Below, in pieces: positions 7,665-49,018 of a stretch of 64,000 nucleotides of DNA. Made by a program: the position numbers and the translations under genes. Position 1 is the first letter of the stretch. Each line of letters begins with the position of its first letter. The DNA comes from an uncultured Gammaproteobacteria bacterium. Its GTDB lineage: Bacteria; Pseudomonadota; Gammaproteobacteria; Magnimaribacterales; TMED112. The stretch lies in contig CAJWAI010000003.1 of the NCBI GenBank assembly GCA_913020145.1, positions 1,243-65,242 on the forward strand, written 5' to 3'. The notes below the pieces were generated by a model, which was not told where the DNA came from, did no database searches, and saw only the letters and a program-made list of their open reading frames with translations.

Positions 7665-8653
7665 ATAAATTTAAAGTCAACTTCACCCTTGTCCGACACA
7701 AAACCAATCTCTATTAATTTCGGATTCTCTTTAATAGCTTTTTTTGCGTTCAATTTATCTAGCACTAAGCAAAAACCAATACCACAGTTGAAAACATTAA
7801 ACATTTCTTCTTCTGAAATATTTCCTAATTCTTTTATCTCTTCAAATATATTTGGTAATGCCCATTTTTTTCTATCTATACATATTGTTTTTCCATTAGC
7901 AATTCTTGATAGATTTTCATTTAAACCACCACCAGTTATATGTGCCATTCCATTAATTTTGCAGACCTTTTTAAGAGCCAAGATATCATTTACATATATA
8001 TTTGTAGGAGTTAATAATTTTTGCATGAGAGAATTGTCAATAACCTTATCTTCGATAATTTGATTTATTAATGAATATCCATTTGAGTGAAACCCAGAGG
8101 AGGGCAGGCCAAGAACTAAATTGTCTGCTTCTATTGATGAACCATCGATTATTTCATCTTTATTGTTAACACCAAGGGAGAAACCCACCAAATCAAAGTT
8201 GTCATTTGTATAGTGATTAGGCATTTCAGCAGTTTCTCCACCAATTAACTCACAACCTGCTAATTTACAACCTTCTAGTATCCCTGAAATGATTTCTTTC
8301 CCTTTTGACCTATCTAATTTTGAACAGCCATAATAATCCAAGAATGCTGTTGGCTTTGCACCACTCGAGATTAAATCGTTAACACACATAGCAACAAGAT
8401 CGATACCAATTGTTTTTAAATTATTAAGCTTTAGAGCAATTTTTATTTTTGTGCCAACACCATCGCATGCCAAAGCATAGACGGGTGAAGAAAATTCGGA
8501 AGGTGTATCGACATATCCAGAAAAGCTGCCAATATTACTCAGAGAATATGATGTAATAGGTTCTCGTGTAAGGTCCTTTATATCTTCTATAAATCTTTGG
8601 CCTTCCTCGATATCAACACCTGTATCTTTGTACTTATTTTTGTTTTTTGTCAT
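7661..8653 (-). CDS. purM: Phosphoribosylformylglycinamidine cyclo-ligase (AIR synthetase)
   Basis: YKDTGVDIEEG, DGVGTKIKIA, DLVAMCVNDL, GGETAEMP, SSGFHSNGYSL. Confidence 0.95.
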   Translation of the reverse strand: MTKNKNKYKDTGVDIEEGQRFIEDIKDLTREPITSYSLSNIGSFSGYVDTPSEFSSPVYALACDGVGTKIKIALKLNNLKTIGIDLVAMCVNDLISSGAKPTAFLDYYGCSKLDRSKGKEIISGILEGCKLAGCELIGGETAEMPNHYTNDNFDLVGFSLGVNNKDEIIDGSSIEADNLVLGLPSSGFHSNGYSLINQIIEDKVIDNSLMQKLLTPTNIYVNDILALKKVCKINGMAHITGGGLNENLSRIANGKTICIDRKKWALPNIFEEIKELGNISEEEMFNVFNCGIGFCLVLDKLNAKKAIKENPKLIEIGFVSDKGEVDFKFI

Positions 8654-8673
8654 AAAATAGTTAATCTTAAATT

Positions 8674-9612
8674 ATGTTTTCTAAGAAAATATTTAGTTCA
8701 GTTGCAATTATATTGTCTTTTATCTCATTGAGTTTCAACTCTATGGCGCAGATTTCTGATAATTTTATTCTTCTTTATGAGAGTTATAGCAAACTTAATC
8801 AAATAGAAGAAATAATTCAAAATTCAGATCAAAAGATCATGAGAAAATATGGAGTAAATCAAAAGTATGTGCAAGAACGAGAAATTAATCTTCAAGCAAC
8901 TAAACATTTCATTGGTTATCAAATAAAAAAATTCAACGATCAAAGATTAGTAGAGTTAAAATTTAGTAAGGATTCCATAGAAAAATTTTTCTTAGATAAT
9001 TCAATTCCCTTTTTAAGCTTTCAGGGTAAAGCCAAAATTTTTATAGGTGCTAATGATTCATTTTTTTCACAATCAAACTTATTTATTTATGAAAGCGAGG
9101 TTTTTCAAAATGAGCTAATTGATTCAAAACTACTGTCATCATTGAATCAAAATATAACTATAGATTATGAATTTTTGGATAATTATCCAGTTTCAAGTTA
9201 TGAGCAACAAGAATTACTACAGAGCATTGAAAGTTCAGAAGAAGGCGACTGGTTAGTATTGTTAATAGATAGATTTGACCTTGATAAATGGAGCATTCAA
9301 TTCCCTAAAACATCTACAATTTACCTTGAGGATGAGATTGAGTTTCAAAATTACCTCTTAGATCAAATTTTGGAAGAAGTTCTTATGATTACCAATGTTA
9401 TTTCTAAAAATAGCTATTCGGTAATATTTGATGCAGAACTTTCACTAGAGCAAATAACAGAACTAGTTGAGACATTATCATTAAGTACAGATATTTTGCA
9501 TTTTAGAGTAAAGAAAATATCTGCCGATGAGATAGAAATTGAATATGAAACCTACCTAGATAAAGATAAAGCTACTGCATTTTTCAAAGAATTAGGTGGA
9601 ACAACAATTTAA
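8674..9612 (+). CDS. Secreted hypothetical protein (DUF2066-like by synteny, divergent from purM and upstream of hda)
   Basis: Signal peptide. The position between purM and hda matches the conserved gammaproteobacterial arrangement. I recognise no motif. Confidence 0.4.
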   Translation: MFSKKIFSSVAIILSFISLSFNSMAQISDNFILLYESYSKLNQIEEIIQNSDQKIMRKYGVNQKYVQEREINLQATKHFIGYQIKKFNDQRLVELKFSKDSIEKFFLDNSIPFLSFQGKAKIFIGANDSFFSQSNLFIYESEVFQNELIDSKLLSSLNQNITIDYEFLDNYPVSSYEQQELLQSIESSEEGDWLVLLIDRFDLDKWSIQFPKTSTIYLEDEIEFQNYLLDQILEEVLMITNVISKNSYSVIFDAELSLEQITELVETLSLSTDILHFRVKKISADEIEIEYETYLDKDKATAFFKELGGTTI

Positions 9613-10319
9613 TGAAAAATATCACCAGAAAAAACCAGCTGTATTTTGACTTCGGCCGTGACTATGATGCAAGCTTAGAAAATTTCTTTTTTTCAAGTAA
9701 GAATCAAGTGCTAAAAAATGAATTAATTGAAACTCTAAACTTTGAGCAGAAAAAGGACATCTTTATTATGGGTGCCAACAACTCAGGCAAGACCTTTTTA
9801 TTAAATTCTCTTTTAAATCATGAGGAGAGCTTATCAAAGGCAAACATATATATAGATTTATCAGAACTTGATGGATCAAAAGATTATTTTACTGATCTTA
9901 ACCAGTTTGATCTAATTTGTTTAGATAATTTTGACAAAATTAATAAAAAAATAGAGGTACAGATATTTAATTTGATAAATGAATGTAGAACTACACCAAT
10001 CAACTTAATTTTTGCATCTAGTTTAAATCCTTCTGAGCTTTCTTTCATGCCTGATTTAATTTCACGGCTGAAGCAGATGAATTATTTCTACATTAATGAG
10101 ATTGAAGATCAAGAAGTTTTGGAGTGCATTATGTTTATAGCAAAAAAATTAAATCTCGATTTCTCTGAGGATGTAATGCGGTTTATTTCAAAACGAATAA
10201 GAAGAGATTTCTCTTCAATAAAAAATACAATTCAACAACTCGAAAAGTTTCTTTACTCAGAAAAAAAAGAGCCAACTAAAAAATCAGTTAGCTCTTTTTT
10301 TAAAGAATATAAGAGTTAG
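9612..10319 (+). CDS. hda: DnaA regulatory inactivator Hda (DnaA-related AAA+)
   Basis: 235 aa. N-terminal QLYFDF clamp-binding-like motif, Walker A GANNSGKTFLL, Walker B LICLDNFD, synteny. Confidence 0.75.
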   Translation: MKNITRKNQLYFDFGRDYDASLENFFFSSKNQVLKNELIETLNFEQKKDIFIMGANNSGKTFLLNSLLNHEESLSKANIYIDLSELDGSKDYFTDLNQFDLICLDNFDKINKKIEVQIFNLINECRTTPINLIFASSLNPSELSFMPDLISRLKQMNYFYINEIEDQEVLECIMFIAKKLNLDFSEDVMRFISKRIRRDFSSIKNTIQQLEKFLYSEKKEPTKKSVSSFFKEYKS

Positions 10320-12166
10320 TAGACTACTTCACATTCAATGCAGTAGATTCTTATATTTCTATATATATCTTCTGTATTAAAGTGATTATTTTTTTCTGTA
10401 TCAAATAAGCTCTTAATAAAATCAAATTGAAACATATAATTTGCAGGTGGTGCCGGAGGAATTACATGTTCAACTTTATAGTCTTCAAGCTCCGCACTTT
10501 CAGCTATATATTTAATAGCATCATCAAGTGTTCCTAGTTCATCTACAAGATTTATTTCAAGTGCCATTTCTCCAGAGTAGACTCTGCCTTTAGCTATTTC
10601 TCTTACTTTCTCAATTGGTATACCTCTATCATTGGCAACTTGTGATGTAAATTTATCGTATGTTGAATAAATTCCTGCTCTGACTAAATTTTCAAATTCT
10701 TCTGGCCAATCCATGGCAGTAAAATCAAAAGCACCATATTTTGTTGTGGAATATCCATCATAATTTATACCCATCCAATCATATATTTTTTCAAAACTGA
10801 ATAGAGTTCCATAAACACCGATTGATCCTGTAATAGTATCTGGTTCTGCATAAATCTTGTCAGCAAGAGAAGATATCCAATATCCACCAGAAGCAGCTAA
10901 TGTACCCATTGAGACGACGACAGGTATTCCTTTTTCTTGAGCTTTCTCAATTTCCCATCTCATATAATCAGAGTCAACGACAGAACCACCAGGAGAACTT
11001 ACCCTTAAGACTATCGCTTTAGTATCTTCATCCTCATGAGCCTCTTTAAGCATATCAACTATGCCATCTGATCCTGCTTGACCATAAACCACTGGGCCAC
11101 CCATAATCGTGCCTTCAACAGTTACTACCTTGATTACATTTTTGCTGCTTGACGGCATATCTTGTTCGATGCTTGCTAAGTAGTCGCGATAATAAACTGC
11201 ATTCAATGCTTCATTATTGTCTTCAGAAGTGCCAAACCTTTCTTTCATACGATCATCAAAATCATCTCTCTCTTCTATTACATCTACCATACCCCATGTC
11301 TTATAAGCTTCGAGTTGATCTACGGAACCATCGATGATCTGTTCAAAAGATTCATCAGCAATCCATTGCAAATCTACTTCTCTATTTTCATAGACAAAAT
11401 CTTTCCATTTTTTCCAGAGAGGCTCATAGAAAGCTAAATTTGCTTTAGCTTCATCACTCATTCTGTCACTAGTGTAAGGTTCTGGACCAGTTTTAAAATC
11501 ACCAGCTGCAAATATTCTTGGAGTTATTAAGAATTTTTCAAAGAAGTTTTTTAGATATTGTCTAGCTCCGCCAAAACCACTAATTGATATTGAGCTATAA
11601 GTTGGAACACTAATTTCAGTAGCTGTCGAAGCTAAAAGATAAGTTCCATCTGTTAAAAAATCACTTCTGACAACTATTTCTTTTCCTGCATCGACTGCTT
11701 CTTTCATTTTCTTAGCTATTGGTAAGGCATACACAATACTTACCCCCAAACCAGAAGGATCAAAAATCATAGCATCAACTCTCTCATCGTTCTTGAAATC
11801 GTCAAAGTATTCAAGCATATCTTGGTATGGGTAGTATATTGTTCCGTTCTGTGAAGGTATCACACCATCTAAATCTTCCCACCACTGTGCTGGAGGAGGA
11901 GTGGGCGGTTGGTCAACAATAACCCCTTGAGGGCTAAATACCACTACTTTTCCTGTAGGGTCAATTTCGTTTGATTCCTGCCATAAAGGGCTGATTAAGC
12001 TTAGAACTACACTTATTGCTATATATAAAAATATACCTGTAGCTAAAGTAAATCTGACCGCTTTCCAAAAGTAGTCTCTGCTTATAGCTATATAACCCCA
12101 AGTAGCAACAAAAAAATTGCTAACTTTAGATAGGAAACTCTCATTTGTTTTTTTCTTCTTTACCAT
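10316..12166 (-). CDS. sppA: Signal peptide peptidase SppA, 67K type
   Basis: 616 aa with two ClpP/crotonase-like halves. GGSVVDSDYMRWEI, MGTLAASGGYWIS. N-terminal TM segment. Confidence 0.9.
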   Translation of the reverse strand: MVKKKKTNESFLSKVSNFFVATWGYIAISRDYFWKAVRFTLATGIFLYIAISVVLSLISPLWQESNEIDPTGKVVVFSPQGVIVDQPPTPPPAQWWEDLDGVIPSQNGTIYYPYQDMLEYFDDFKNDERVDAMIFDPSGLGVSIVYALPIAKKMKEAVDAGKEIVVRSDFLTDGTYLLASTATEISVPTYSSISISGFGGARQYLKNFFEKFLITPRIFAAGDFKTGPEPYTSDRMSDEAKANLAFYEPLWKKWKDFVYENREVDLQWIADESFEQIIDGSVDQLEAYKTWGMVDVIEERDDFDDRMKERFGTSEDNNEALNAVYYRDYLASIEQDMPSSSKNVIKVVTVEGTIMGGPVVYGQAGSDGIVDMLKEAHEDEDTKAIVLRVSSPGGSVVDSDYMRWEIEKAQEKGIPVVVSMGTLAASGGYWISSLADKIYAEPDTITGSIGVYGTLFSFEKIYDWMGINYDGYSTTKYGAFDFTAMDWPEEFENLVRAGIYSTYDKFTSQVANDRGIPIEKVREIAKGRVYSGEMALEINLVDELGTLDDAIKYIAESAELEDYKVEHVIPPAPPANYMFQFDFIKSLFDTEKNNHFNTEDIYRNIRIYCIECEVVY

Positions 12167-12264
12167 AAATTACCTCTTTGAATTAGAAAGTACATAATGC
12201 CTTAAAAGAATATCTTCGGCAAATATAATTAGTTCATATATAATGTTTTTCTTATATTTTTAGC

Positions 12265-12744
12265 ATGAGAATTTTATTAGTCGCATTAACCATTTTTCTT
12301 ACTTCTTGTCAGGGCGAAGATTTAGAAAGTCAGAAAGGAGATTTAGAAAGTCAGAAATTAGATTTAGAAATTTCTCAGGGAGGGTTTTTATCATCTAAAG
12401 AGTTAAGTGATGAAGTTATTGTATTGAATATATGGGCAGACTGGTGTCCTCCATGCATTAAAGAGATGCCGTACTTCAATAAACTGGATAAACTTCCTGA
12501 AGTAACTGTGCTTGGTTTTCACTTCGATCAATTTGATTTACTCGATGAAGCAGAATTACTTGTTTTAATTGAAAAGCTTGGCATGGATTTTGCAAACTTA
12601 AAAACTGATCCTAGAGATATATGGGGCATAGATATTCCAGGACATGTGCCAACAATAATAATCATAAAAGACAATGTGGTAGTAAAAACCATGATTACTC
12701 CCCAGACTTATGAATCACTTCTAGAAGCTATAGAAGTTAGCTAA
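12265..12744 (+). CDS. TlpA/DsbE-like thioredoxin-fold lipoprotein
   Basis: Lipobox FLTSC and redox motif WADWCPPC. Confidence 0.75.
   Translation: MRILLVALTIFLTSCQGEDLESQKGDLESQKLDLEISQGGFLSSKELSDEVIVLNIWADWCPPCIKEMPYFNKLDKLPEVTVLGFHFDQFDLLDEAELLVLIEKLGMDFANLKTDPRDIWGIDIPGHVPTIIIIKDNVVVKTMITPQTYESLLEAIEVS
12316..12378 (+). repeat. 21-nt (7-aa) tandem repeat, about 3 copies, in the lipoprotein linker
   Basis: gaagatttagaaagtcagaaa / ggagatttagaaagtcagaaa / ttagatttagaaatttctcag, encoding EDLESQK-GDLESQK-LDLEISQ directly after the lipobox Cys. Confidence 0.85.
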
Positions 12745-13960
12745 TTACTTTTGATTTAACTTTACCTTTAGCAAACCTTGTTTCTAATACATCATCTTTC
12801 TTCAGTAGTTTTGCATCACTTGCAATCTTGCCATCATTTGTAAATGTTATTGAGTAACCACGACCAAGTATTTGCTCAGGGTTTATGACGCTTAGTTTTT
12901 CTTTTAAAACCTTAAATGCATTAACCTTTTTAGCTAATAAAGCTCCAATTTTGGCATTAATTTCAAGCAAATTTGAATCAAGTCTTAAATACTGTTCTTG
13001 AAGTCTTTGTTTTGGTGAACGTAAGAGCCTTTGAAGGGTCATAAGTTTTTCTGATATTTGATTTATTTTTTGTTTGACTTCTTTGATCAGAGATTGGTTT
13101 AAAAATTTAAAATATTCATTTAACTTGCTGGCTCCTTCACTCACAATCTCTGCAGCTGCTGTTGGCGTAGCCGCTCTGACGTTGGCAATGAAATCAGTCA
13201 AAGTAAAATCTGTTTCATGTCCAACACCGCTTATGACTGGAATATCATATTCAGCTAGGTATCTACAAAGCATTTCGTCATTGAAACTCCAAAGATCTTC
13301 AATTGAGCCACCACCTCGACAAAGAATAACTGCATCAACTGTATTTTTTTTATGGTATTTGCTAATTTTTTTAAGAGATTCTTGTATCGATTCAGCTGAA
13401 CCATCTCCTTGAACTTTAGTTGGAGCTATAAGAACTTCAACATGGGGCGATCTTCTTTGCAAAGTTGAAATTACATCTTTTATCGCAGCTCCATGCGCTG
13501 AAGTGACTACAGCTACTCTATTTATAATCTCAGGCACTTGATCTACATTCTTTTTTTCAAATAAACCCTCAGTGTTTAATTTATTCTTTAATTGTTCATA
13601 ACGACGCATTAATTCGCCAAAACCAGCAAGCTCCATTTTGCTAGCTATCATTTGATACCTACCTGTTTTTTTATAAATGGAAAGTTTGCCTTGCAGTATT
13701 ACTTGATCACCTTCTTTAGGCTTAAATCTTAAATTTATATTTTGGAGTCTAAACATAGTGCAGTTAAGAACAGAGTCAGGATCCTTTATTGAAAAGTACC
13801 AATGACCAGAAGTGCCATATTCACGAAAATTCGATATTTCTCCTGCAACCCATAGAGGAGGGAAGGCCTCATTAAGAAAATCATTGGCTGTTTGATTTAT
13901 TTCAGAAACAGAAAGAATTTCTCTTTGGTCTCCTATAGTTTGATCAGAGTAGTCTTCCAT
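12737..13960 (-). CDS. xseA: Exodeoxyribonuclease VII large subunit
   Basis: LSVSEINQTANDFLNEAFPPLWVAGEISNF, GHWYFSIKD, RGGGSIEDLWSFNDE. Confidence 0.95.
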   Translation of the reverse strand: MEDYSDQTIGDQREILSVSEINQTANDFLNEAFPPLWVAGEISNFREYGTSGHWYFSIKDPDSVLNCTMFRLQNINLRFKPKEGDQVILQGKLSIYKKTGRYQMIASKMELAGFGELMRRYEQLKNKLNTEGLFEKKNVDQVPEIINRVAVVTSAHGAAIKDVISTLQRRSPHVEVLIAPTKVQGDGSAESIQESLKKISKYHKKNTVDAVILCRGGGSIEDLWSFNDEMLCRYLAEYDIPVISGVGHETDFTLTDFIANVRAATPTAAAEIVSEGASKLNEYFKFLNQSLIKEVKQKINQISEKLMTLQRLLRSPKQRLQEQYLRLDSNLLEINAKIGALLAKKVNAFKVLKEKLSVINPEQILGRGYSITFTNDGKIASDAKLLKKDDVLETRFAKGKVKSKVIS

Positions 13961-13987
13961 ATAAAATTATTATATTCTATTCTCTTC

Positions 13988-14064
13988 GCGAGTTTAGCTC
14001 AGTTGGTTAGAGCACCTGCTTTACACGCAGGGGGTCGTAGGTTCGAATCCTACAACTCGCACCA
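13988..14064 (+). tRNA. tRNA-Val (anticodon TAC)
   Basis: Cloverleaf checked by hand. Acceptor GCGAGTT/AACTCGC, D stem GCTC/GAGC, anticodon stem CCTGC/GCAGG with loop TTTACAC, T stem GTAGG/CCTAC with TTCGAAT, encoded CCA. Confidence 0.95.
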
Positions 14065-14072
14065 TTTAGATC

Positions 14073-14510
14073 ATGAAAGAACATATAGAAAAAGCTTTAA
14101 CCTTTCATAGGGATAACAGCGGCACTGGAAAGATATTCCAATTTAAGCTTTTAGAATACAAGGAAGGATTTCTAAAGCTTGAAGCACAATTTCCCGATGA
14201 AACTTTAAATCCTGATGGATCTGTTCAAGGTGGCATGATGACTTCAATGTTAGATGATGTCACAGCCTTACTTTTAGTTATAGAATCAAAAGGAACAATA
14301 TATCCAAGCTCAGTTAACCTTCACTCTCATCATCATAGACCTTTATTTAAGAGCACAGTCACAGCAACAGCTAATTTACTTAAAAAAGGCAAAACTATTG
14401 CTACAGTACAAGGAAGCATTTTTGATAAAGATGACAAATTAGCCGCAACTCTTATGCATACTATTTTTATTTTTAATAGAACGGAAAGATTCAATAAAGA
14501 TAAATCTTAG
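14073..14510 (+). CDS. PaaI-family hotdog-fold thioesterase
   Basis: 145 aa. NPDGSVQGGMMTSMLDDV is the typical PaaI/YbgC-type motif. The ATG lies 8 nt after the tRNA-Val CCA. Confidence 0.75.
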   Translation: MKEHIEKALTFHRDNSGTGKIFQFKLLEYKEGFLKLEAQFPDETLNPDGSVQGGMMTSMLDDVTALLLVIESKGTIYPSSVNLHSHHHRPLFKSTVTATANLLKKGKTIATVQGSIFDKDDKLAATLMHTIFIFNRTERFNKDKS

Positions 14511-14893
14511 TTTTTCTGCAAATTGCTTATTAATTTGAAGCCAATTATTGCTGCAATAACTTCAACAATTAAATAGAAAATAAAAATAGGTGAAGGCATT
14601 CCATCAAGAATGAGACTTAAGGTCCTTCCAGAAGCTATGCCAGTCATAAAAATCGCTAAACTCCAAAGTGCTGGTAAACGTAATTTTTCGTACCGAGCAC
14701 CAATTACCCAAAAAATACATAAAGCAATATATAAACCCATTACTGCCCGAAGTATGTTGGAGAGATTTACGGTGTCGACTTCTATACCATAAAAATTTGG
14801 CATGCTAACAGCAGGATTGCCACCATAAAGTAATGAAACTGGAAACACACCAGCTGCAATAAACAGCAAAAAGAATGATTCCCTTTTCATCAT
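14507..14893 (-). CDS. Small integral membrane protein (4 predicted TM, DUF4345-like)
   Basis: 128 aa with four hydrophobic segments. The family call is tentative. Confidence 0.5.
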   Translation of the reverse strand: MMKRESFFLLFIAAGVFPVSLLYGGNPAVSMPNFYGIEVDTVNLSNILRAVMGLYIALCIFWVIGARYEKLRLPALWSLAIFMTGIASGRTLSLILDGMPSPIFIFYLIVEVIAAIIGFKLISNLQKN

Positions 14894-14904
14894 TAAATTT
14901 TAGC

Positions 14905-14935
14905 AAAAAAAAAGCCCGCTAATGCGGGCTTTTTA
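14905..14935 (-). terminator. Rho-independent terminator downstream of proteorhodopsin
   Basis: Minus strand AAAAAGCCCGC-ATTA-GCGGGCTTTTTTTTT, 16 nt after the proteorhodopsin stop. A-run and T-run on both sides make it potentially bidirectional. Confidence 0.85.
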
Positions 14936-14950
14936 ATAAAAGAAATTGAC

Positions 14951-15688
14951 TTAAGCTTTGCTTACGCCAGAGTCTCTCATAGCTGCATGCCAGATAACTA
15001 ATCCAAATAAGAATTTGTTAACAACATCAGCAAGGTTATATAGTGAGTTCAGGCCAGCAACTTCTGTTCCGTCTCCTGCAATGTAACCCATGTAGTAACC
15101 TATTGGATAGATAATCCAACCAACAGTTACAATCCATTTAATACCATTGAAAGCCATTGCTAGGTTTTCATTTTTAGCAGCTGCGGCAGCTTTTGCTGCA
15201 TCACCGGCCCAGATTAGCCAGATGACATAAGCCCATCCAACTATTCCTATTGCAAAACCGACTTCTGCGCTGTTTTCACCTAACATACCTGCTTCACCCA
15301 TGTATCCTCCAAGGAGCATAACAAGTGAACCTACAAGTAGCTTCCAAAATAAACTTAAACTCACAGCAGTTACTGCTGCAACTATTAAGTAAAATTCTAC
15401 AATCTGTAGAGGGACTGTAATAAGCCAATCTACATATCTAAGCTCAGTTGGTGAACTTGCGTTACCAGCTATGCTTGTGACTTCCCATACTTCTCTCATA
15501 TACATGTAGTGCCAAAAAGCAACAAAACATACGAGACATGCTACGGTAAGCGATGTTTGCCATTCTTTGTTGACTGTGCTTCTCTCCATAAAGAAGAACA
15601 AGCTACCCATCAACATGACGGCTGTGGCTACCCAAAAGGTAAAGCCAGTAAAGTCAGAACTTATGTCATACATAATTCTCTCTCCCAT
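14951..15688 (-). CDS. Proteorhodopsin, proton-pump type (DTE motif), Gln at the spectral tuning position (blue-absorbing type)
   Basis: FWHYMYMR, RYVDWLITVPLQIVEFYL (Asp acceptor, Thr, Glu donor; Q where green variants have L), GYMGEAG, Schiff-base Lys in YNLADVVNKFLFG. The real start is probably the second ATG at 15673, because the first five codons (ATGGGAGAGAGAATT) contain a GGAGAG SD for it. Confidence 0.95.
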   Translation of the reverse strand: MGERIMYDISSDFTGFTFWVATAVMLMGSLFFFMERSTVNKEWQTSLTVACLVCFVAFWHYMYMREVWEVTSIAGNASSPTELRYVDWLITVPLQIVEFYLIVAAVTAVSLSLFWKLLVGSLVMLLGGYMGEAGMLGENSAEVGFAIGIVGWAYVIWLIWAGDAAKAAAAAKNENLAMAFNGIKWIVTVGWIIYPIGYYMGYIAGDGTEVAGLNSLYNLADVVNKFLFGLVIWHAAMRDSGVSKA

Positions 15689-15710
15689 TAATTAATATTA
15701 ATTAGCCCAT

Positions 15711-15739
15711 ATTCTATTGCTCTAAAACATAAAATTCAA
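15711..15739 (-). promoter_or_regulatory. Putative sigma70 promoter of proteorhodopsin
   Basis: Minus strand TTGAAT (15739-15734), 17-nt spacer, TAGAAT (15716-11), about 25-40 nt upstream of the start codons. Confidence 0.5.
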
Positions 15740-15820
15740 CTTTAAATGAGAACCATTCTCAATAAATTAGAGAAAAAAAGTTGTATTAATTGAACATTTG
15801 TACCAAAATCTACAACTCGC

Positions 15821-15898
15821 GGTCCGGTAGTTCAGTTTGGTTAGAATGCCTGCCTGTCACGCAGGAGGTCGAGGGTTCGAGTCCCTTCCGGATCGCCA
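15821..15898 (+). tRNA. tRNA-Asp (anticodon GTC)
   Basis: Acceptor GGTCCGG/CCGGATC (one G-U), GTAGTTCAGTTTGGTTAGAAT D arm, anticodon stem CCTGC/GCAGG with loop CTGTCAC, T arm GAGGG-TTCGAGT-CCCTT, discriminator G, CCA. Confidence 0.95.
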
Positions 15899-15909
15899 AC
15901 TTTGGAAAG

Positions 15910-16338
15910 ATGTTTGTTGATATAGCTTTACAGACAATACTCGCAGCAATAGTGGGTGGGATTTGGCTTACACCTTTGGTAGTAAGTCCAGCCGCTCGAG
16001 CTAGTTTAGATGATGAATCATTAAGATTCTTTTTAAGAGCTTTCTTTTTTAGATTTCATTTATTTATTGTTCTAATGCTGCTCGCATATTTAAGTATTAT
16101 TTATTTCTTTCAATTAGGGGAGTATGAATTAATTTGGTCAAGCACAAAGAATTTTATGATGCTTGTGTTATTGGGCCTTAACTTTTTTAACTTAATTCTT
16201 GGCTTAACAATAAATAATGCAAAAGTTGATACAAATGGGGCATTTTTTAAGATAGTTCACGGCACAAGTGTTGCTATATTTACAGCAACATCTTTTATCT
16301 CTCTGTATTATTTGATTGAAAAATTTATTTCAACTTAA
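15910..16338 (+). CDS. Small integral membrane protein, first gene of the envelope-modification operon
   Basis: The ORF-track ORF 15790-16338 reads through tRNA-Asp. The plausible start is the ATG at 15910 (MFVDIALQTILAAIVGG...). About 142 aa with 4 hydrophobic segments. Its stop abuts the next start (16338/16339). Confidence 0.6.
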   Translation: MFVDIALQTILAAIVGGIWLTPLVVSPAARASLDDESLRFFLRAFFFRFHLFIVLMLLAYLSIIYFFQLGEYELIWSSTKNFMMLVLLGLNFFNLILGLTINNAKVDTNGAFFKIVHGTSVAIFTATSFISLYYLIEKFIST

Positions 16339-25006: not shown

Positions 25007-25083
25007 CGGGGCATAGCGCAGTCTGGTAGCGCACCTGGTTTGGGACCAGGTGGTCGCAGGTTCAAATCCTGCTGCCCCGACCA
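25007..25083 (+). tRNA. tRNA-Pro (anticodon TGG)
   Basis: Acceptor CGGGGCA/TGCCCCG, anticodon stem CCTGG/CCAGG with loop TTTGGGA, T arm GCAGG-TTCAAAT-CCTGC, ACCA end. Confidence 0.95.
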
Positions 25084-25160
25084 GCGCCAGTAGCTCAGCT
25101 GGATAGAGCAGTAGCCTTCTAAGCTATTGGTCGGGGGTTCGAATCCTCCCTGGCGCGCCA
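25084..25160 (+). tRNA. tRNA-Arg (anticodon TCT)
   Basis: Acceptor GCGCCAG/CTGGCGC, anticodon loop CTTCTAA, T arm GGGGG-TTCGAAT-CCTCC, GCCA end. It starts at the nucleotide immediately after the CCA of tRNA-Pro. Confidence 0.95.
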
Positions 25161-46957: not shown

Positions 46958-46965
46958 TTTAAAAT

Positions 46966-47855: not shown

Positions 47856-48599
47856 TTAATTGTATTGCTTTTTGTGCTCTAAGTAAGCTTTCCAAGCAAT
47901 TTCTTGTAGAAATGTTAAATCTTTTTCAGAAATTTGGTTTAGATAATTATATTTAAGTCCTTCAGGAGAGGAATTTGTAATCATAGAAAATACTACATAA
48001 GAACCTAAGTAGGTTCCTAGCAGTCCAGGATGAGTTCCATCTGGATGATGCAACATTATATTGGGTCTTTCCTTGTATGCCATTTCATAGGCTATTCCTA
48101 CAGGAGCAACTTTAGAATTACTTTTCTTTCCTGCATCGTAATAGGCCAGTTTTATTTTTTTAATTAAATTTTTCTCATATCTAGGATCGTTATCAAGATA
48201 GGCGTGAGTCATATATAAAGCTGTTTGTATTCCAATTTTTTGGGCTTTTTTGCTGTAATTCACAGCTGTATCTGTAAATATAGACCTTAATTCTGAGGTA
48301 GTAACCTCCTTGCTACCACCTTGCATGATCAGTAAATCTATTTGTCGATCTAGTTGAAGGTTTTTGTAATCGAGTAAGTGCTCAATATTATGGTTATTTA
48401 ATCTAGAACCTCCAATTGTTGCTGATTTTGTGATGATGTCTTCATCATCATAGTATTCGATAAGCATCCTCTCTACATGATTATGAACACTATCGTTATA
48501 ATAGAGATAACTATTACCTACAAATAAAATTCTTTTTGGGTATTCAGCAAGCAATAGATTAGACAATAGAATTATTAAAAAAATTTTTAAATATTTCAT
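47856..48599 (-). CDS. Secreted SGNH/GDSL-like hydrolase (tentative)
   Basis: Signal peptide. ILFVGNSYLYYN resembles SGNH block I (GNS in place of GDS). HPDGTHPG lies near the C-terminus. Confidence 0.45.
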   Translation of the reverse strand: MKYLKIFLIILLSNLLLAEYPKRILFVGNSYLYYNDSVHNHVERMLIEYYDDEDIITKSATIGGSRLNNHNIEHLLDYKNLQLDRQIDLLIMQGGSKEVTTSELRSIFTDTAVNYSKKAQKIGIQTALYMTHAYLDNDPRYEKNLIKKIKLAYYDAGKKSNSKVAPVGIAYEMAYKERPNIMLHHPDGTHPGLLGTYLGSYVVFSMITNSSPEGLKYNYLNQISEKDLTFLQEIAWKAYLEHKKQYN

Positions 48600-49018
48600 G
48601 CCTTTATGTTCTTATGCATAGCAGTAAATACAATTTTAGAAATTAAATTTCCCATCTCATCTTCTATTTTTACATCCCATATAGATGTGGTCTTTCCTAA
48701 GTGATTAGGAGAAGCAGTGGCATATACGAAACCTTCGGTAATGCTTTTTATATGGTTTGCTGTCAGACTCAAGCCAACGACCGTTTTCTTGCTAGGGTCT
48801 ACAGTTAAATATGCAGCACAACTAGCTGTACTTTCTGCAATAACACATGAAGCACCACCATGAAGCAGACCTAAAGGCTGACGAGTTTTTTCATTTACAG
48901 GCATTTTCGCTTTTAAAAAATCATTCCCTAGTTCAACAAATTCAATTTCTAAAAGCTTGTCTATATTTATTGAGGAACGAAAATCTTCAATTTTATAGTT
49001 TTTAAACCATATGCTCAT
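48596..49018 (-). CDS. PaaI/EntH-type hotdog-fold thioesterase
   Basis: 140 aa. NEKTRQPLGLLHGGASCVIAESTAS is the classic YbdB/PaaI motif. Confidence 0.8.
   Translation of the reverse strand: MSIWFKNYKIEDFRSSINIDKLLEIEFVELGNDFLKAKMPVNEKTRQPLGLLHGGASCVIAESTASCAAYLTVDPSKKTVVGLSLTANHIKSITEGFVYATASPNHLGKTTSIWDVKIEDEMGNLISKIVFTAMHKNIKA

What the first reader, a model, noticed from the sequence alone, without database searches (positions are those of the whole stretch)
14050..15820. Proteorhodopsin islet inserted between tRNA-Val and tRNA-Asp, bounded by an exact 11-nt repeat of the tRNA-Val 3' end
Seen: CTACAACTCGC, the 3' strand of the tRNA-Val T-stem/acceptor stem (14050-14060), recurs exactly at 15810-15820 (13 of 16 identical when extended 5'). 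The second copy directly abuts G1 of tRNA-Asp (15821). The 1.75 kb between the copies holds only three genes. These are a PaaI thioesterase starting 8 nt after the tRNA, a 128-aa 4-TM protein, and proteorhodopsin with its own near-consensus promoter (15711-15739) and strong terminator (14905-14935). Established: integration into tRNA 3' ends leaves a displaced partial copy of the tRNA 3' end as a direct repeat, and proteorhodopsin is known to spread laterally. Inference: an ancestral adjacent Val-Asp tRNA pair was split by site-specific insertion of a small photosystem cassette whose integrase has since been lost. Oddities: the distal copy lacks the discriminator and CCA and has zero spacer to tRNA-Asp. 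No retinal biosynthesis genes (crtEIBY/blh) are in the window.
Basis: partly seen in the sequence, partly recalled or inferred. Interest (0 to 1): 0.65.

Follow-up and report, generated by a model that had tools for sequence, protein, structure and literature searches.

The report
SAR86 proteorhodopsin cassette between two tRNAs
The light-driven proton pump gene of this marine SAR86 bacterium sits in an old, conserved slot between two tRNA genes; the 11-base "insertion scar" is most likely part of the next tRNA's promoter, yet the slot's contents do seem to have been swapped between lineages.

Summary
CTACAACTCGC occurs at 14050-14060 (3' end of tRNA-Val) and at 15810-15820, touching tRNA-Asp. 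Between them lie a hotdog thioesterase, a DUF4345 protein and proteorhodopsin (PR).

A recent integrase-borne islet is not supported.
- All eight complete SAR86 relatives in this XseA cluster (identity 94-53%) and eight complete population contigs carry thioesterase and PR between the same two tRNAs.
- No empty site was found in 241 million metagenome records.
- No integrase or transposase family was found in the window, and base composition is unremarkable.
- The second 11-mer lies inside a conserved 40-nt block with -35/-10-like hexamers 17 nt apart, probably the tRNA-Asp promoter and leader. It varies at 5 of 11 positions across relatives, while tRNA-Val never does. Its match is weakly significant (2 of 3000 shuffles).

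Parts of the islet idea survive.
- A very distant relative has PR alone between tRNA-Val and tRNA-Asp.
- Genes inside the interval give a different tree (300/300 bootstraps) from ten flanking genes, and relatedness switches at the two tRNAs.
- In one close lineage, synteny ends 2 nt after the tRNA-Val CCA.

Best reading: an ancient PR slot whose cassette is exchanged by homologous recombination anchored in the tRNA genes.

The parts
12737..13960 (-). xseA (exonuclease VII large subunit). Left flanking core gene, used as the anchor for all comparisons.
   Evidence: Pfam Exonuc_VII_L plus OB fold; homologues and loci.
13988..14064 (+). tRNA-Val(TAC) with encoded CCA. Left boundary of the cassette. 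Its 3' end is identical in all lineages of the clade; the gene differs at two anticodon-stem bases between lineages A/E and B-D.
   Evidence: ARAGORN and Rfam; sequences compared.
14050..14060 (+). 11-mer copy 1: the last 4 nt of the T-stem 3' strand plus the 7-nt acceptor 3' strand of tRNA-Val.
14073..14510 (+). Hotdog-fold (4HBT / TIGR00369, PaaI-like) thioesterase. It starts 8 nt after the tRNA-Val CCA and is probably co-transcribed with the tRNA.
   Evidence: Present in all 8 complete relatives, starting 7-10 nt after the tRNA.
14507..14893 (-). DUF4345 membrane protein (128 aa, four hydrophobic segments). Present only in lineages A and C.
   Evidence: Pfam; presence and absence across loci.
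14909..14934 (-). Intrinsic terminator after PR: 11-bp stem, 4-nt loop, flanked by A and T runs.
   Evidence: (I16).
14951..15673 (-). Proteorhodopsin, 240 aa from M6, no signal peptide. Carries the Asp/Thr/Glu proton-pump residues (YVDWLITVPLQIVEFY), Gln at the spectral-tuning site, and the Schiff-base Lys in NLADVVNKF.
   Evidence: Pfam Bac_rhodopsin 1.8e-42; 240-aa gene calls in population contigs; sequences.
15711..15739 (-). PR promoter-like site, TTGAAT-17-TAGAAT. The -35 block TTCAACTTTA (plus-strand reading) is largely conserved in the clade.
15748..15760 (.). Palindrome GAGAACCATTCTC between the two divergent promoters, found only in lineage A. Possible operator; function unknown.
   Evidence: Alignment A2.
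15776..15809 (+). Inferred tRNA-Asp promoter: an A-tract, -35 TTGTAT (15781-15786), a 17-nt spacer, and -10 CAAAAT (15804-15809).
   Evidence: AAAGTTGTA and TTTGTACCAAAAT are almost invariant (one L002 substitution), and the hexamer spacing is fixed, in 8 lineage representatives. PR is divergent, so the promoter must lie in this spacer. The match to consensus is only 7 of 12 and one search does not list it.
15810..15820 (+). 11-mer copy 2: the stretch between the -10 box and G1 of tRNA-Asp (discriminator, start site and short leader).
   Evidence: It varies at 5 of 11 positions among relatives. It is an exact copy only in this species and L001.
15821..15898 (+). tRNA-Asp(GTC). Right boundary of the cassette. 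Nearly invariant in the clade (one 1-nt D-loop indel).
15910..16338 (+). 142-aa membrane ORF starting 11 nt after tRNA-Asp. First gene of a glycosyltransferase/PAP2 operon (PMT_2, PAP2, PAP2, GT2, PMT_2, GpsA). Right flanking core genes.
   Evidence: conserved in all lineages.

Best explanation
This is the long-standing chromosomal proteorhodopsin locus of a SAR86 clade. It is not a recently integrated element.

The interval holds three compact transcription units (this layout is inferred, not mapped):
1. tRNA-Val with the thioesterase riding 8 nt behind it.
2. PR on the opposite strand, with its own promoter and terminator, followed by DUF4345.
3. tRNA-Asp with its own promoter, leading a glycosyltransferase operon.

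The second 11-mer is the piece of the tRNA-Asp promoter between the -10 box and the mature 5' end. It is kept because it belongs to that promoter and leader. Its identity to the tRNA-Val 3' end in this genome is most likely a coincidence that arose early in the clade, or at most a very old relic.

Independently of the 11-mer, the segment between the two tRNA genes behaves as an exchangeable cassette. Two cassette types exist (thioesterase-DUF4345-PR and thioesterase-PR). Their relationships contradict those of the flanking genes.

The most likely mechanism, which is inferred and not shown, is uptake of DNA from another SAR86 lineage followed by a double crossover. The anchors would be the near-identical tRNA-Val and tRNA-Asp genes and the conserved promoter block beside tRNA-Asp.
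For: Antiquity and conservation
- Eight complete loci from genomes with XseA identity 94-53% all have tRNA-Val, thioesterase, PR and tRNA-Asp in this order, and synteny continues on both sides.
- Eight complete population-level contigs are identical in architecture; two more are cut at PR.
- These lineages fill one 50%-identity XseA cluster. The next XseA representatives are only about 40% identical.
- A relative with 33-37% XseA identity has XseA...tRNA-Val-PR-tRNA-Asp...GpsA. The window also has GpsA downstream.
- No Val-Asp junction with a 0-30 nt spacer was found in the metagenome collection, and no IMG/VR contig carries the tRNA-Val 3' 25-mer.
- No integrase or transposase family was found in the window. 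GC is 0.33-0.41 against a window mean of 0.338.

Promoter reading of the 11-mer
- The AAAGTTGTA and TTTGTACCAAAAT blocks are almost invariant, and the 17-nt hexamer spacing is conserved. The 11-mer itself varies at 5 positions, while the tRNA-Val 3' end is invariant.
- Other tRNAs in the window show similarly tight packing: promoter-like hexamers 8-20 nt upstream, ORFs 8-11 nt downstream, and a zero spacer between tRNA-Pro and tRNA-Arg.
- The distant relative has TTGCAG-16-TATGAT at the same place and no copy of its own tRNA-Val end.

Cassette exchange
- In all 10 flanking genes, lineage B (L004-6) is nearest to A or C, with D at or near the bottom. In thioesterase and PR, B is nearest to D: 0.67 against 0.55 and 0.53, and 0.88 against 0.64 and 0.77.
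- Quartet-informative sites give 14 of 15 for AC|BD inside the interval, against 20/23/24 for the three topologies outside (Fisher p = 3e-5).
- Neighbour-joining bootstraps give AC|BD 300/300 inside. The concatenated flanks give AB|CD 226/300.
- The identity ranking flips at tRNA-Val and flips back at tRNA-Asp.
- DUF4345 presence follows the cassette tree.
- L008 and L009 share a block of about 950 nt (PR, promoters, tRNA-Asp) at 84-95% identity, within flanks at about 50-84%. Four-fold degenerate sites are 0.78 identical in PR against 0.36-0.41 in the flanks.
- In lineage E (XseA protein 81%), homology to the window stops 2 nt after the tRNA-Val CCA.
Against: - The promoter is inferred from conservation and position only. 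Its hexamers match the sigma-70 consensus at 7 of 12 positions and the scan did not list it. No transcription start site data are available.
- The likely ancestral leader (A and D share CTACAACTC) already matched the tRNA-Val end at 10-11 of 11 positions. The resemblance is therefore old, and a chance of roughly 1 in 1000 for this pair of sequences is not negligible evidence for common origin.
- The flank topology rests on about 12 kb around the locus and is only moderately supported (75%; the right flank alone prefers AD|BC). No genome-wide species tree was available.
- PR evolves unusually fast at the protein level in lineage A, which could distort distance-based trees.
- Where PR lies in lineage E could not be determined.
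Confidence: 0.6

Rival explanations
1. In an ancestor of SAR86, an integrase-bearing element carrying PR integrated into the 3' end of tRNA-Val within an adjacent Val-Asp pair. The integrase was later lost. The displaced tRNA end (attR) lost ACCA and was co-opted as the discriminator and leader of the tRNA-Asp promoter, which explains its survival.
For: - Val(TAC)-Asp pairs 2-4 nt apart exist in other bacteria (L058, L069).
- PR alone sits between the two tRNAs in a deep relative.
- The 11-mer match is stronger than expected for this sequence pair (2 of 3000 shuffles) and was probably already present in the clade ancestor.
- The tRNA-Val 3' end is a synteny breakpoint in lineage E.
Against: - No integrase family was found, and there is no room for a remnant: the non-coding gaps are 8, 57 and 147 nt.
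- The repeat lacks the discriminator and CCA. It cannot be the original junction without an extra deletion.
- There is no further tRNA-Val similarity upstream of the 11-mer.
- The deep relative shows no repeat of its own, different tRNA-Val end, nor of the window-type end.
- The repeat drifts in relatives while its surroundings are conserved as a promoter.
- No phage or other IMG/VR contig carries this tRNA-Val end as a possible attP.
- No empty site was found.
Confidence: 0.12
2. Everything is vertical. The interval is an ordinary conserved core locus, the 11-mer is pure coincidence, and the tree conflict between inside and outside is an artefact of unequal rates, saturation and selection on PR.
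For: - Between the window and L001/L002, PR is 79-84% identical in protein against 92-98% for the flanks. Four-fold degenerate sites are equally diverged (0.70-0.76 against 0.64-0.74), so in that comparison the discordance is a rate effect and not a replacement.
- Synonymous sites of the flanks are saturated at the deeper nodes.
- Site counts in the flanks are star-like.
- PR is probably highly expressed and codon-biased.
Against: - The thioesterase, a different kind of protein, gives the same AC|BD split 300/300.
- DUF4345 presence and absence follows that split.
- The ranking of B-A, B-C and B-D nucleotide identities flips exactly at tRNA-Val and flips back at tRNA-Asp.
- The L008/L009 block has sharp edges, and its four-fold-site identity (0.78) is far above the 0.38-0.60 seen for PR in other deep pairs.
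- Lineages B and D are each represented by single-cell genomes, which argues against binning chimeras.
Confidence: 0.2
3. The 11-mer is kept for a function of its own, unrelated to tRNA-Val. TACAACT (15811-15817) is the reverse complement of AGTTGTA (15779-15785) in the -35 region. The two could be half-sites of an operator that brackets the tRNA-Asp promoter.
For: - The 7-bp inverted repeat can be read directly in the sequence.
- L007 and L008 carry a second TACAAC upstream that is palindromic with their -35 block GTTGTA.
- TACA is invariant within the 11-mer.
Against: - A 7-bp inverted repeat within 50 AT-rich bases is not unusual (my estimate is about 0.1 expected by chance).
- Changes in relatives are not consistently compensatory.
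- No regulator is known or encoded nearby.
Confidence: 0.05

Closest known systems
tRNA-targeted genomic islands and integrative elements (P4-like prophages, ICEs, pathogenicity islands)
   Same: The segment begins at the 3' end of a tRNA gene. A short direct repeat of that 3' end lies at the far boundary. The cargo is a niche-adaptive gene known to move laterally. In lineage E the tRNA 3' end is a synteny breakpoint.
   Different: No integrase family was found and there is no space for a remnant. The repeat is only 11 nt and lacks the discriminator and CCA. It is embedded in a conserved promoter. The segment is occupied in every complete relative found and no empty site turned up. Base composition is ordinary.
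Replacement-type flexible genomic islands exchanged by double crossover in conserved flanks (for example O-antigen and glycosylation islands of marine bacteria; the SAR11 hypervariable region between rRNA genes). Recalled from my own knowledge of the literature.
   Same: The phylogeny inside a bounded segment conflicts with the flanks. The boundaries coincide with extremely conserved stable-RNA genes that can serve as recombination anchors.
   Different: The segment is tiny (1.3-1.8 kb). The swapped versions carry the same gene families rather than unrelated gene sets. Only about two cassette types have been seen so far.
Laterally transferred proteorhodopsin photosystems (PR with crtEIBY and blh)
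   Same: PR is the mobile unit, with its own promoter and terminator.
   Different: There are no retinal or carotenoid genes in the window. This agrees with the reported lack of the pathway in SAR86 (PMC3358033). The evidence here points to exchange within SAR86, not between phyla.
[quoted passage not shown]
   Same: Same protein family, same bacterial group, and a single-gene PR unit.
   Different: It is a different chromosomal site (Fpg and a CoaD-like gene | PR | small ORF | SDR) with no tRNAs. Those PRs have a signal peptide and are only 51-52% identical to the window PR.
Mixed tRNA-mRNA operons (for example E. coli thrU-tyrU-glyT-thrT-tufB) and stable-RNA promoters with a GC-rich discriminator. 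Recalled from my own knowledge.
   Same: ORFs begin 8-11 nt after tRNA-Val, tRNA-Asp and tRNA-Ala. The leader ends in TCGC just before the tRNA.
   Different: Co-transcription and the start site are inferred here and have not been measured.

Membership tests
Integrase-mediated tRNA-integrated island | A tyrosine or serine recombinase gene (or its remnant) at one end | tested here: not met
   Pfam on the three cargo genes and on 56 further long ORFs of the window found no integrase or transposase family. The non-coding gaps in the interval are 8, 57 and 147 nt.
Integrase-mediated tRNA-integrated island | Direct repeat of the tRNA 3' end, normally through the discriminator and CCA, at the distal boundary | tested here: inconclusive
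   An exact 11-nt repeat is present, but it lacks ACCA. It is reached by 2 of 3000 shuffles. It degrades to 8-10 of 11 in relatives. It is absent in the deep relative L080.
Integrase-mediated tRNA-integrated island | Presence/absence polymorphism: an empty attachment site in related genomes | tested here: not met
   There were 0 hits for the tRNA-Val 3' end followed by 0-30 nt and the tRNA-Asp 5' end in metagenome contigs. All 8 complete genome loci and all 8 complete population contigs are occupied. Lineage E shows a different junction rather than an empty site.
Integrase-mediated tRNA-integrated island | Atypical base composition relative to the host | tested here: not met
   GC is 0.329 for the thioesterase, 0.351 for DUF4345 and 0.411 for PR, against a window mean of 0.338. 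SppA windows reach 0.41 as well.
Proteorhodopsin (light-driven proton pump) | Seven-helix Bac_rhodopsin fold with the Schiff-base Lys and the Asp/Thr/Glu carboxylate motif | tested here: met
   Pfam PF01036 at 1.8e-42. The motifs YVDWLITVPLQIVEFY and NLADVVNKF align with the EBAC31A08-type PR. Gln at the tuning position suggests blue absorption; that rule comes from established knowledge and was not measured here.
Proteorhodopsin photosystem cassette | Linked retinal synthesis genes (crtEIBY, blh) | tested here: not met
   None was found among the window ORFs scanned. This is consistent with PMC3358033.
Sigma-70 promoter of a stable-RNA gene (reading of 15776-15820) | -35 and -10 hexamers at 16-18 nt spacing, close to the transcript start | tested here: inconclusive
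   TTGTAT-17-CAAAAT matches the consensus at only 7 of 12 positions and is not listed. However, the blocks are almost invariant and the hexamer spacing is conserved in 8 lineage representatives. The deep relative has TTGCAG-16-TATGAT at the same place.
Sigma-70 promoter of a stable-RNA gene (reading of 15776-15820) | A mapped transcription start site | not testable with these tools
   This needs 5'-end RNA sequencing or metatranscriptome read mapping.
Replacement island exchanged by homologous recombination | Highly conserved anchors on both sides | tested here: met
   tRNA-Val is identical in lineages B, C and D and differs at 2 nt in A and E. tRNA-Asp is identical apart from a 1-nt indel. 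A conserved promoter block of about 40 nt adjoins tRNA-Asp.
Replacement island exchanged by homologous recombination | The phylogeny inside conflicts with the flanks, with switch points at the anchors | tested here: met
   AC|BD 300/300 inside; AB|CD 226/300 for the ten flanking genes; the identity ranking flips at both tRNAs.
Replacement island exchanged by homologous recombination | Conflict confirmed against a genome-wide species tree | not tested
   Only about 10 kb on each side was available for each locus.

The most novel reading that the evidence does not exclude
The Val-Asp tRNA pair is a dedicated docking slot for light-harvesting cassettes across the SAR86 order. On this reading, a tRNA-Val-targeted integration delivered proteorhodopsin into an adjacent Val-Asp pair in an early SAR86 ancestor. 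Its distal attachment-site scar survives as the 11-mer because it was co-opted as the discriminator and leader of the tRNA-Asp promoter. The slot has since been used repeatedly to swap PR variants between lineages.
Probability: 0.12. Interest if true: 0.6.

Novelty: new member of a known kind. Interest (0 to 1): 0.4.

Why it matters
SAR86 is one of the most abundant bacterial groups in the surface ocean, and proteorhodopsin was first discovered in it.

If the PR gene sits in a fixed slot between two near-invariant tRNA genes, and the slot's contents are exchanged between lineages, that gives a concrete and testable route for how PR variants spread without any mobile-element machinery. Variants with different colour tuning, or with and without DUF4345, could move this way. 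It would also explain why assemblies tend to break at PR.

It further shows that a short tRNA-end repeat in a very compact, AT-rich genome is not enough on its own to call an integration scar.

The ordinary part of the result matters as well. The locus is old, conserved and promoter-dense, so the finding as written should not be catalogued as a mobile islet.

Tried and rejected
- An exact look-up of the 245-aa PR ORF found nothing. The real start is M6, giving 240 aa.
- The empty-site scan of metagenomes and the viral-contig scan for the tRNA-Val end both found nothing.
- The second metagenome scan looked for SAR86-type tRNA-Asp with a base other than A at -9. It returned 53 contigs with non-SAR86 sequence upstream of the tRNA; the seven inspected included other bacteria and two phage-like contigs. 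It could not give the number of standard-leader copies.
- I tested whether PR in this genome was replaced relative to L001/L002, because it is 79-84% identical in protein against 92-98% for the flanks. I rejected this: synonymous divergence is the same as in the flanks, so it is fast protein evolution.
- A search for residual tRNA-Val homology upstream of the 11-mer found none.
- I checked the apparent resemblance of the L080 leader (TTCGAA...AACTATCGC) to the window-type tRNA-Val. It is not above shuffles.
- I compared the 142-aa ORF after tRNA-Asp with the small ORFs (142 and 147 aa) after EBAC-type PR. There is no similarity.
- I tried to reach outgroups through XseA. The representative search shows a gap from 53% to about 40% identity. 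One outgroup contig was too short. Three long ones (L087-89) keep the XseA-Redoxin-SppA-Hda-PurM synteny but have no tRNA or PR within 6 kb, so they are neither empty nor occupied sites.
- Literature searches found no description of tRNA-flanked PR in SAR86.
Its best hit was 96% identical, which was adequate for retrieving that PR clade.


Full report
**1. What is in the sequence**

- tRNA-Val(TAC) lies at 13988-14064 and tRNA-Asp(GTC) at 15821-15898.
- CTACAACTCGC occurs at 14050-14060 and 15810-15820, and nowhere else in the window on either strand, even with one mismatch. The second copy ends one base before G1 of tRNA-Asp.
- The 1756 nt between the tRNAs are almost entirely coding. They hold a 4HBT/TIGR00369 hotdog thioesterase (14073-14510, starting 8 nt after the CCA), a DUF4345 membrane protein (14507-14893, minus strand) and a Bac_rhodopsin protein.
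- Gene callers start PR at M6 (14951-15673, 240 aa).
- The window PR carries the Asp/Thr/Glu pump residues, the Schiff-base lysine, and Gln at the colour-tuning site. It has no signal peptide.
- The PR promoter-like site (TTGAAT-17-TAGAAT, 15739->15711) and a strong terminator (14934->14909) are both found.
- Pfam scans of 59 long ORFs across the window found no integrase, transposase, carotenoid or Blh family.
- GC content of the three genes is 0.33-0.41, against 0.338 for the window.

**2. Whose genome, and how old the arrangement is**

I used XseA, the gene next to tRNA-Val, as an anchor. It retrieved nine loci from species-representative genomes, several of them labelled SAR86 cluster bacterium, with XseA identity from 94% to 53%.
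- All eight loci that reach far enough have tRNA-Val, thioesterase, PR (opposite strand) and tRNA-Asp, with collinear genes on both sides.
- DUF4345 is present in the window, L001, L002 and L007. It is absent in L004-6 and L008-9.
- Eight complete metagenome contigs with an identical XseA have identical architecture. Two more end at or inside PR.
- An exhaustive search of 50%-identity representatives shows these lineages form one isolated XseA cluster. The next relatives are only about 40% identical.
- A scan of 241 million metagenome records for the tRNA-Val 3' end, then 0-30 nt, then the tRNA-Asp 5' end found nothing. No IMG/VR contig carries the tRNA-Val 3' end.

**3. The second 11-mer is part of a conserved promoter region**

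PR is transcribed away from tRNA-Asp, so tRNA-Asp needs its own promoter within the spacer upstream of it.
- In an alignment of eight lineage representatives, two blocks are almost invariant (one substitution in L002). The first is an A-tract with GTTGTA (-35 TTGTAT, 15781-15786). The second is TTTGTACCAAAAT (-10 CAAAAT, 15804-15809). The two hexamers are always 17 nt apart.
- These 11 nt are less conserved than the boxes. The variants are CTACAACTTGC (L002), CTACACTTCGC (L004-6), TTACACTTCGC (L007), CTACAACTCAC (L008) and CTACATCTCAC (L009). The tRNA-Val 3' end is identical in all of them.
- An exact second copy exists only in this species and in L001.
- The hexamers match the sigma-70 consensus at only 7 of 12 positions and the generic scan did not list them. 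The promoter is therefore an inference from position and conservation.
- The rest of the genome fits this reading. tRNA-Pro has TTGAGT-17-TATGAT ending 8 nt before the tRNA. ORFs start 8, 11 and 8 nt after tRNA-Val, tRNA-Asp and tRNA-Ala. tRNA-Pro and tRNA-Arg touch with no spacer. The 8-nt gap to the thioesterase is therefore this genome's normal style and not a sign of insertion.

**4. How unlikely is the match?**

- tRNA-Val aligned against the 132-nt spacer scores 23, which 2 of 3000 shuffles reach. Once the 11-mer is removed, nothing exceeds chance.
- In relatives, the same test falls to non-significance in L004, L007 and L009.
- A fortuitous exact 12-mer links the tRNA-Val D-arm to the PR coding sequence in the same 3 kb.
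- The second copy lacks the discriminator and CCA. A true displaced tRNA end directly fused to tRNA-Asp would need an extra deletion.
- Lineages A and D share CTACAACTC, so the resemblance probably dates to the clade ancestor. I cannot exclude an old relic, but the evidence for one is weak.

**5. Deeper relatives**

- That PR type lies in a different locus (Fpg and a CoaD-like gene | PR | small ORF | SDR) without tRNAs. This matches the SDR-flanked locus described for SAR86 A-D (PMC3358033).
- A third, very abundant PR (P0222) lies alone between a typical gammaproteobacterial tRNA-Val(TAC) and tRNA-Asp, in the same orientation. XseA lies 1.3 kb to one side and HSP90-GpsA to the other.
- That XseA is only 33-37% identical to the window clade. 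The window also has GpsA downstream of the tRNA-Asp operon.
- In that relative, the tRNA-Asp leader follows a good TTGCAG-16-TATGAT. It matches neither its own tRNA-Val end nor the window's.
- tRNA-Val(TAC) followed within 2-4 nt by tRNA-Asp occurs in unrelated bacteria (L058, L069).
- Another SAR86-like lineage (XseA 39%) keeps the XseA-Redoxin-SppA-Hda-PurM synteny but has no tRNA or PR within 6 kb.

Together these results make it plausible that PR entered an adjacent Val-Asp pair very early. They give no support to the 11-mer as the scar of that event.

**6. The interval nevertheless behaves as a cassette**

I call the lineages A (window, L001, L002), B (L004-6), C (L007) and D (L008-9).
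- In all ten flanking genes, B is closest to A or C, with D at or near the bottom. In the thioesterase and PR, B is closest to D: 0.67 against 0.55 and 0.53, and 0.88 against 0.64 and 0.77.
- Quartet-informative sites are 14 of 15 for AC|BD inside the interval, and 20/23/24 for the three topologies outside (Fisher p = 3e-5).
- Neighbour-joining bootstraps give AC|BD 300/300 for each inner gene. They give AB|CD 226/300 for the concatenated flanks.
- In a sliding window, B-A identity exceeds B-D throughout xseA. The order flips at tRNA-Val and flips back at tRNA-Asp.
- DUF4345 presence (A and C) follows the cassette tree.
- Within D, L008 and L009 share a block of about 950 nt (PR, the promoters and tRNA-Asp) at 84-95% identity, while their flanks are about 50-84% identical. 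Four-fold degenerate sites are 0.78 identical in PR against 0.36-0.41 in neighbouring genes.
- B and D each include single-cell genomes, so binning chimeras are unlikely.
- By contrast, the low PR protein identity between the window and L001/L002 comes with normal synonymous divergence. That case is fast protein evolution in the 5' two-thirds of PR, not replacement.
- In lineage E (XseA protein 81%: L003, L090, L091), homology to the window runs from 8209 to 14066 and stops 2 nt after the tRNA-Val CCA. Beyond it come a bidirectional terminator, a convergent TonB-dependent receptor, an RraA-like gene and a GH3 gene. I had no look-ups left to find where PR lies in that lineage.

**7. Mechanism**

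Shown:
- The slot is old and conserved.
- Promoter-like blocks are conserved.
- The history inside the slot is discordant with the history outside it.
- The boundaries of that discordance fall at the tRNAs.

Inferred:
- tRNA-Val and the thioesterase, and tRNA-Asp and the downstream operon, are co-transcribed. PR is a separate unit with its own promoter and terminator.
- Cassettes are replaced by double crossover. The anchors would be the near-identical 77-78-nt tRNA genes and the conserved block of about 40 nt beside tRNA-Asp. No integrase is needed.
- The 11-mer plays no part in this exchange.

**8. Comparison with known systems, and novelty**

- The locus resembles tRNA-associated islands in position only. 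It fails three of four defining tests: integrase, empty site and composition.
- It works more like the small replacement islands that marine bacteria exchange through conserved flanks. It is also reminiscent of the SAR11 variable region held between rRNA genes (my recollection, not tested here).
- Lateral movement of PR and the lack of retinal genes in SAR86 are already known.
- I found no paper describing the tRNA-Val/tRNA-Asp frame or cassette-level exchange in SAR86.
- I rate it a new member of a known kind, with moderate interest.

**9. Limits**

- No transcription data were available.
- The flank tree rests on about 12 kb and is only moderately supported.
- There is no genome-wide species tree.
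- Lineage E is unresolved.

Noticed in passing
window 25007-25160: tRNA-Pro(TGG) and tRNA-Arg(TCT) abut with no spacer: the CCA of one is followed directly by G1 of the next. The same pair is adjacent in L008 and L009.
   Followed up: partly
window 14065-14072, 15899-15909, 46958-46965: Protein-coding ORFs begin 8, 11 and 8 nt after the CCA of tRNA-Val, tRNA-Asp and tRNA-Ala on the same strand. This suggests that tRNA-led mRNAs are a general habit of this streamlined genome.
   Followed up: partly
window 15748-15760: A 13-nt palindrome, GAGAACCATTCTC, lies between the divergent PR and tRNA-Asp promoters. It is present only in the window, L001 and L002 (as GAGAAnnATTCTC). The other lineages lack this ~20-nt segment of the spacer. 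It may be an operator.
   Followed up: no
window 13996-14007 and 15441-15452: The exact 12-mer AGCTCAGTTGGT is shared by the tRNA-Val D-arm and the PR coding sequence. It is a fortuitous repeat longer than the 11-mer of the finding.
   Followed up: yes
window 15779-15785 and 15811-15817; L007 and L008 spacers: AGTTGTA in the -35 region is the reverse complement of TACAACT inside the 11-mer. L007 and L008 also carry a TACAAC upstream that is palindromic with their -35 block.
   Followed up: partly
window 15171-15690 (5' two-thirds of PR): This part of PR is 72-79% identical in nucleotides to L001/L002 over most of its length (lower at the 5' end against L001), against about 90% in the flanks. 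There are indels in the loop after helix B. Four-fold degenerate sites are no more diverged than in neighbouring genes, so this is rapid protein evolution. Two metagenome contigs (L018, L019) end at or inside PR.
   Followed up: yes
L008 8475-9430 against L009: A block of about 950 nt (PR, both promoters and tRNA-Asp) is 84-95% identical between two lineages whose flanking genes are about 50-84% identical. It looks like a recent PR-only exchange.
   Followed up: partly
L090 and L091 1-4396; L003 start: In the lineage with 81% XseA identity, homology to the window ends 2 nt after the tRNA-Val CCA. A bidirectional terminator, a convergent TonB-dependent receptor, an RraA-like gene and a GH3 gene follow instead of the PR cassette. 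The species-representative contig L003 ends at this tRNA.
   Followed up: partly
L073-L078, L082: PR of the EBAC31A08 type occupies a second, tRNA-free locus (ParE/GyrB-like, TolC-like, Fpg, CoaD-like | PR | small ORF | SDR). SAR86 therefore has at least two PR sites.
   Followed up: partly
L033 1290-1366, L037 4952-5028: Phage-like marine contigs (peptide deformylase-like, radical-SAM-like and ATP-grasp-like ORFs by my reading; GC 0.32) carry a tRNA-Asp that is 75 of 77 identical to the SAR86 tRNA-Asp. They may come from a phage of SAR86 or of a similar host.
   Followed up: no
window 12737-13960: XseA is 407 aa in this lineage and in lineage E. It is 448-451 aa in the other SAR86 lineages and outgroups, a loss of roughly 40 residues.
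   Followed up: no
window 48596-49018: A second 4HBT hotdog thioesterase gene lies 34 kb from the one beside tRNA-Val.
   Followed up: no
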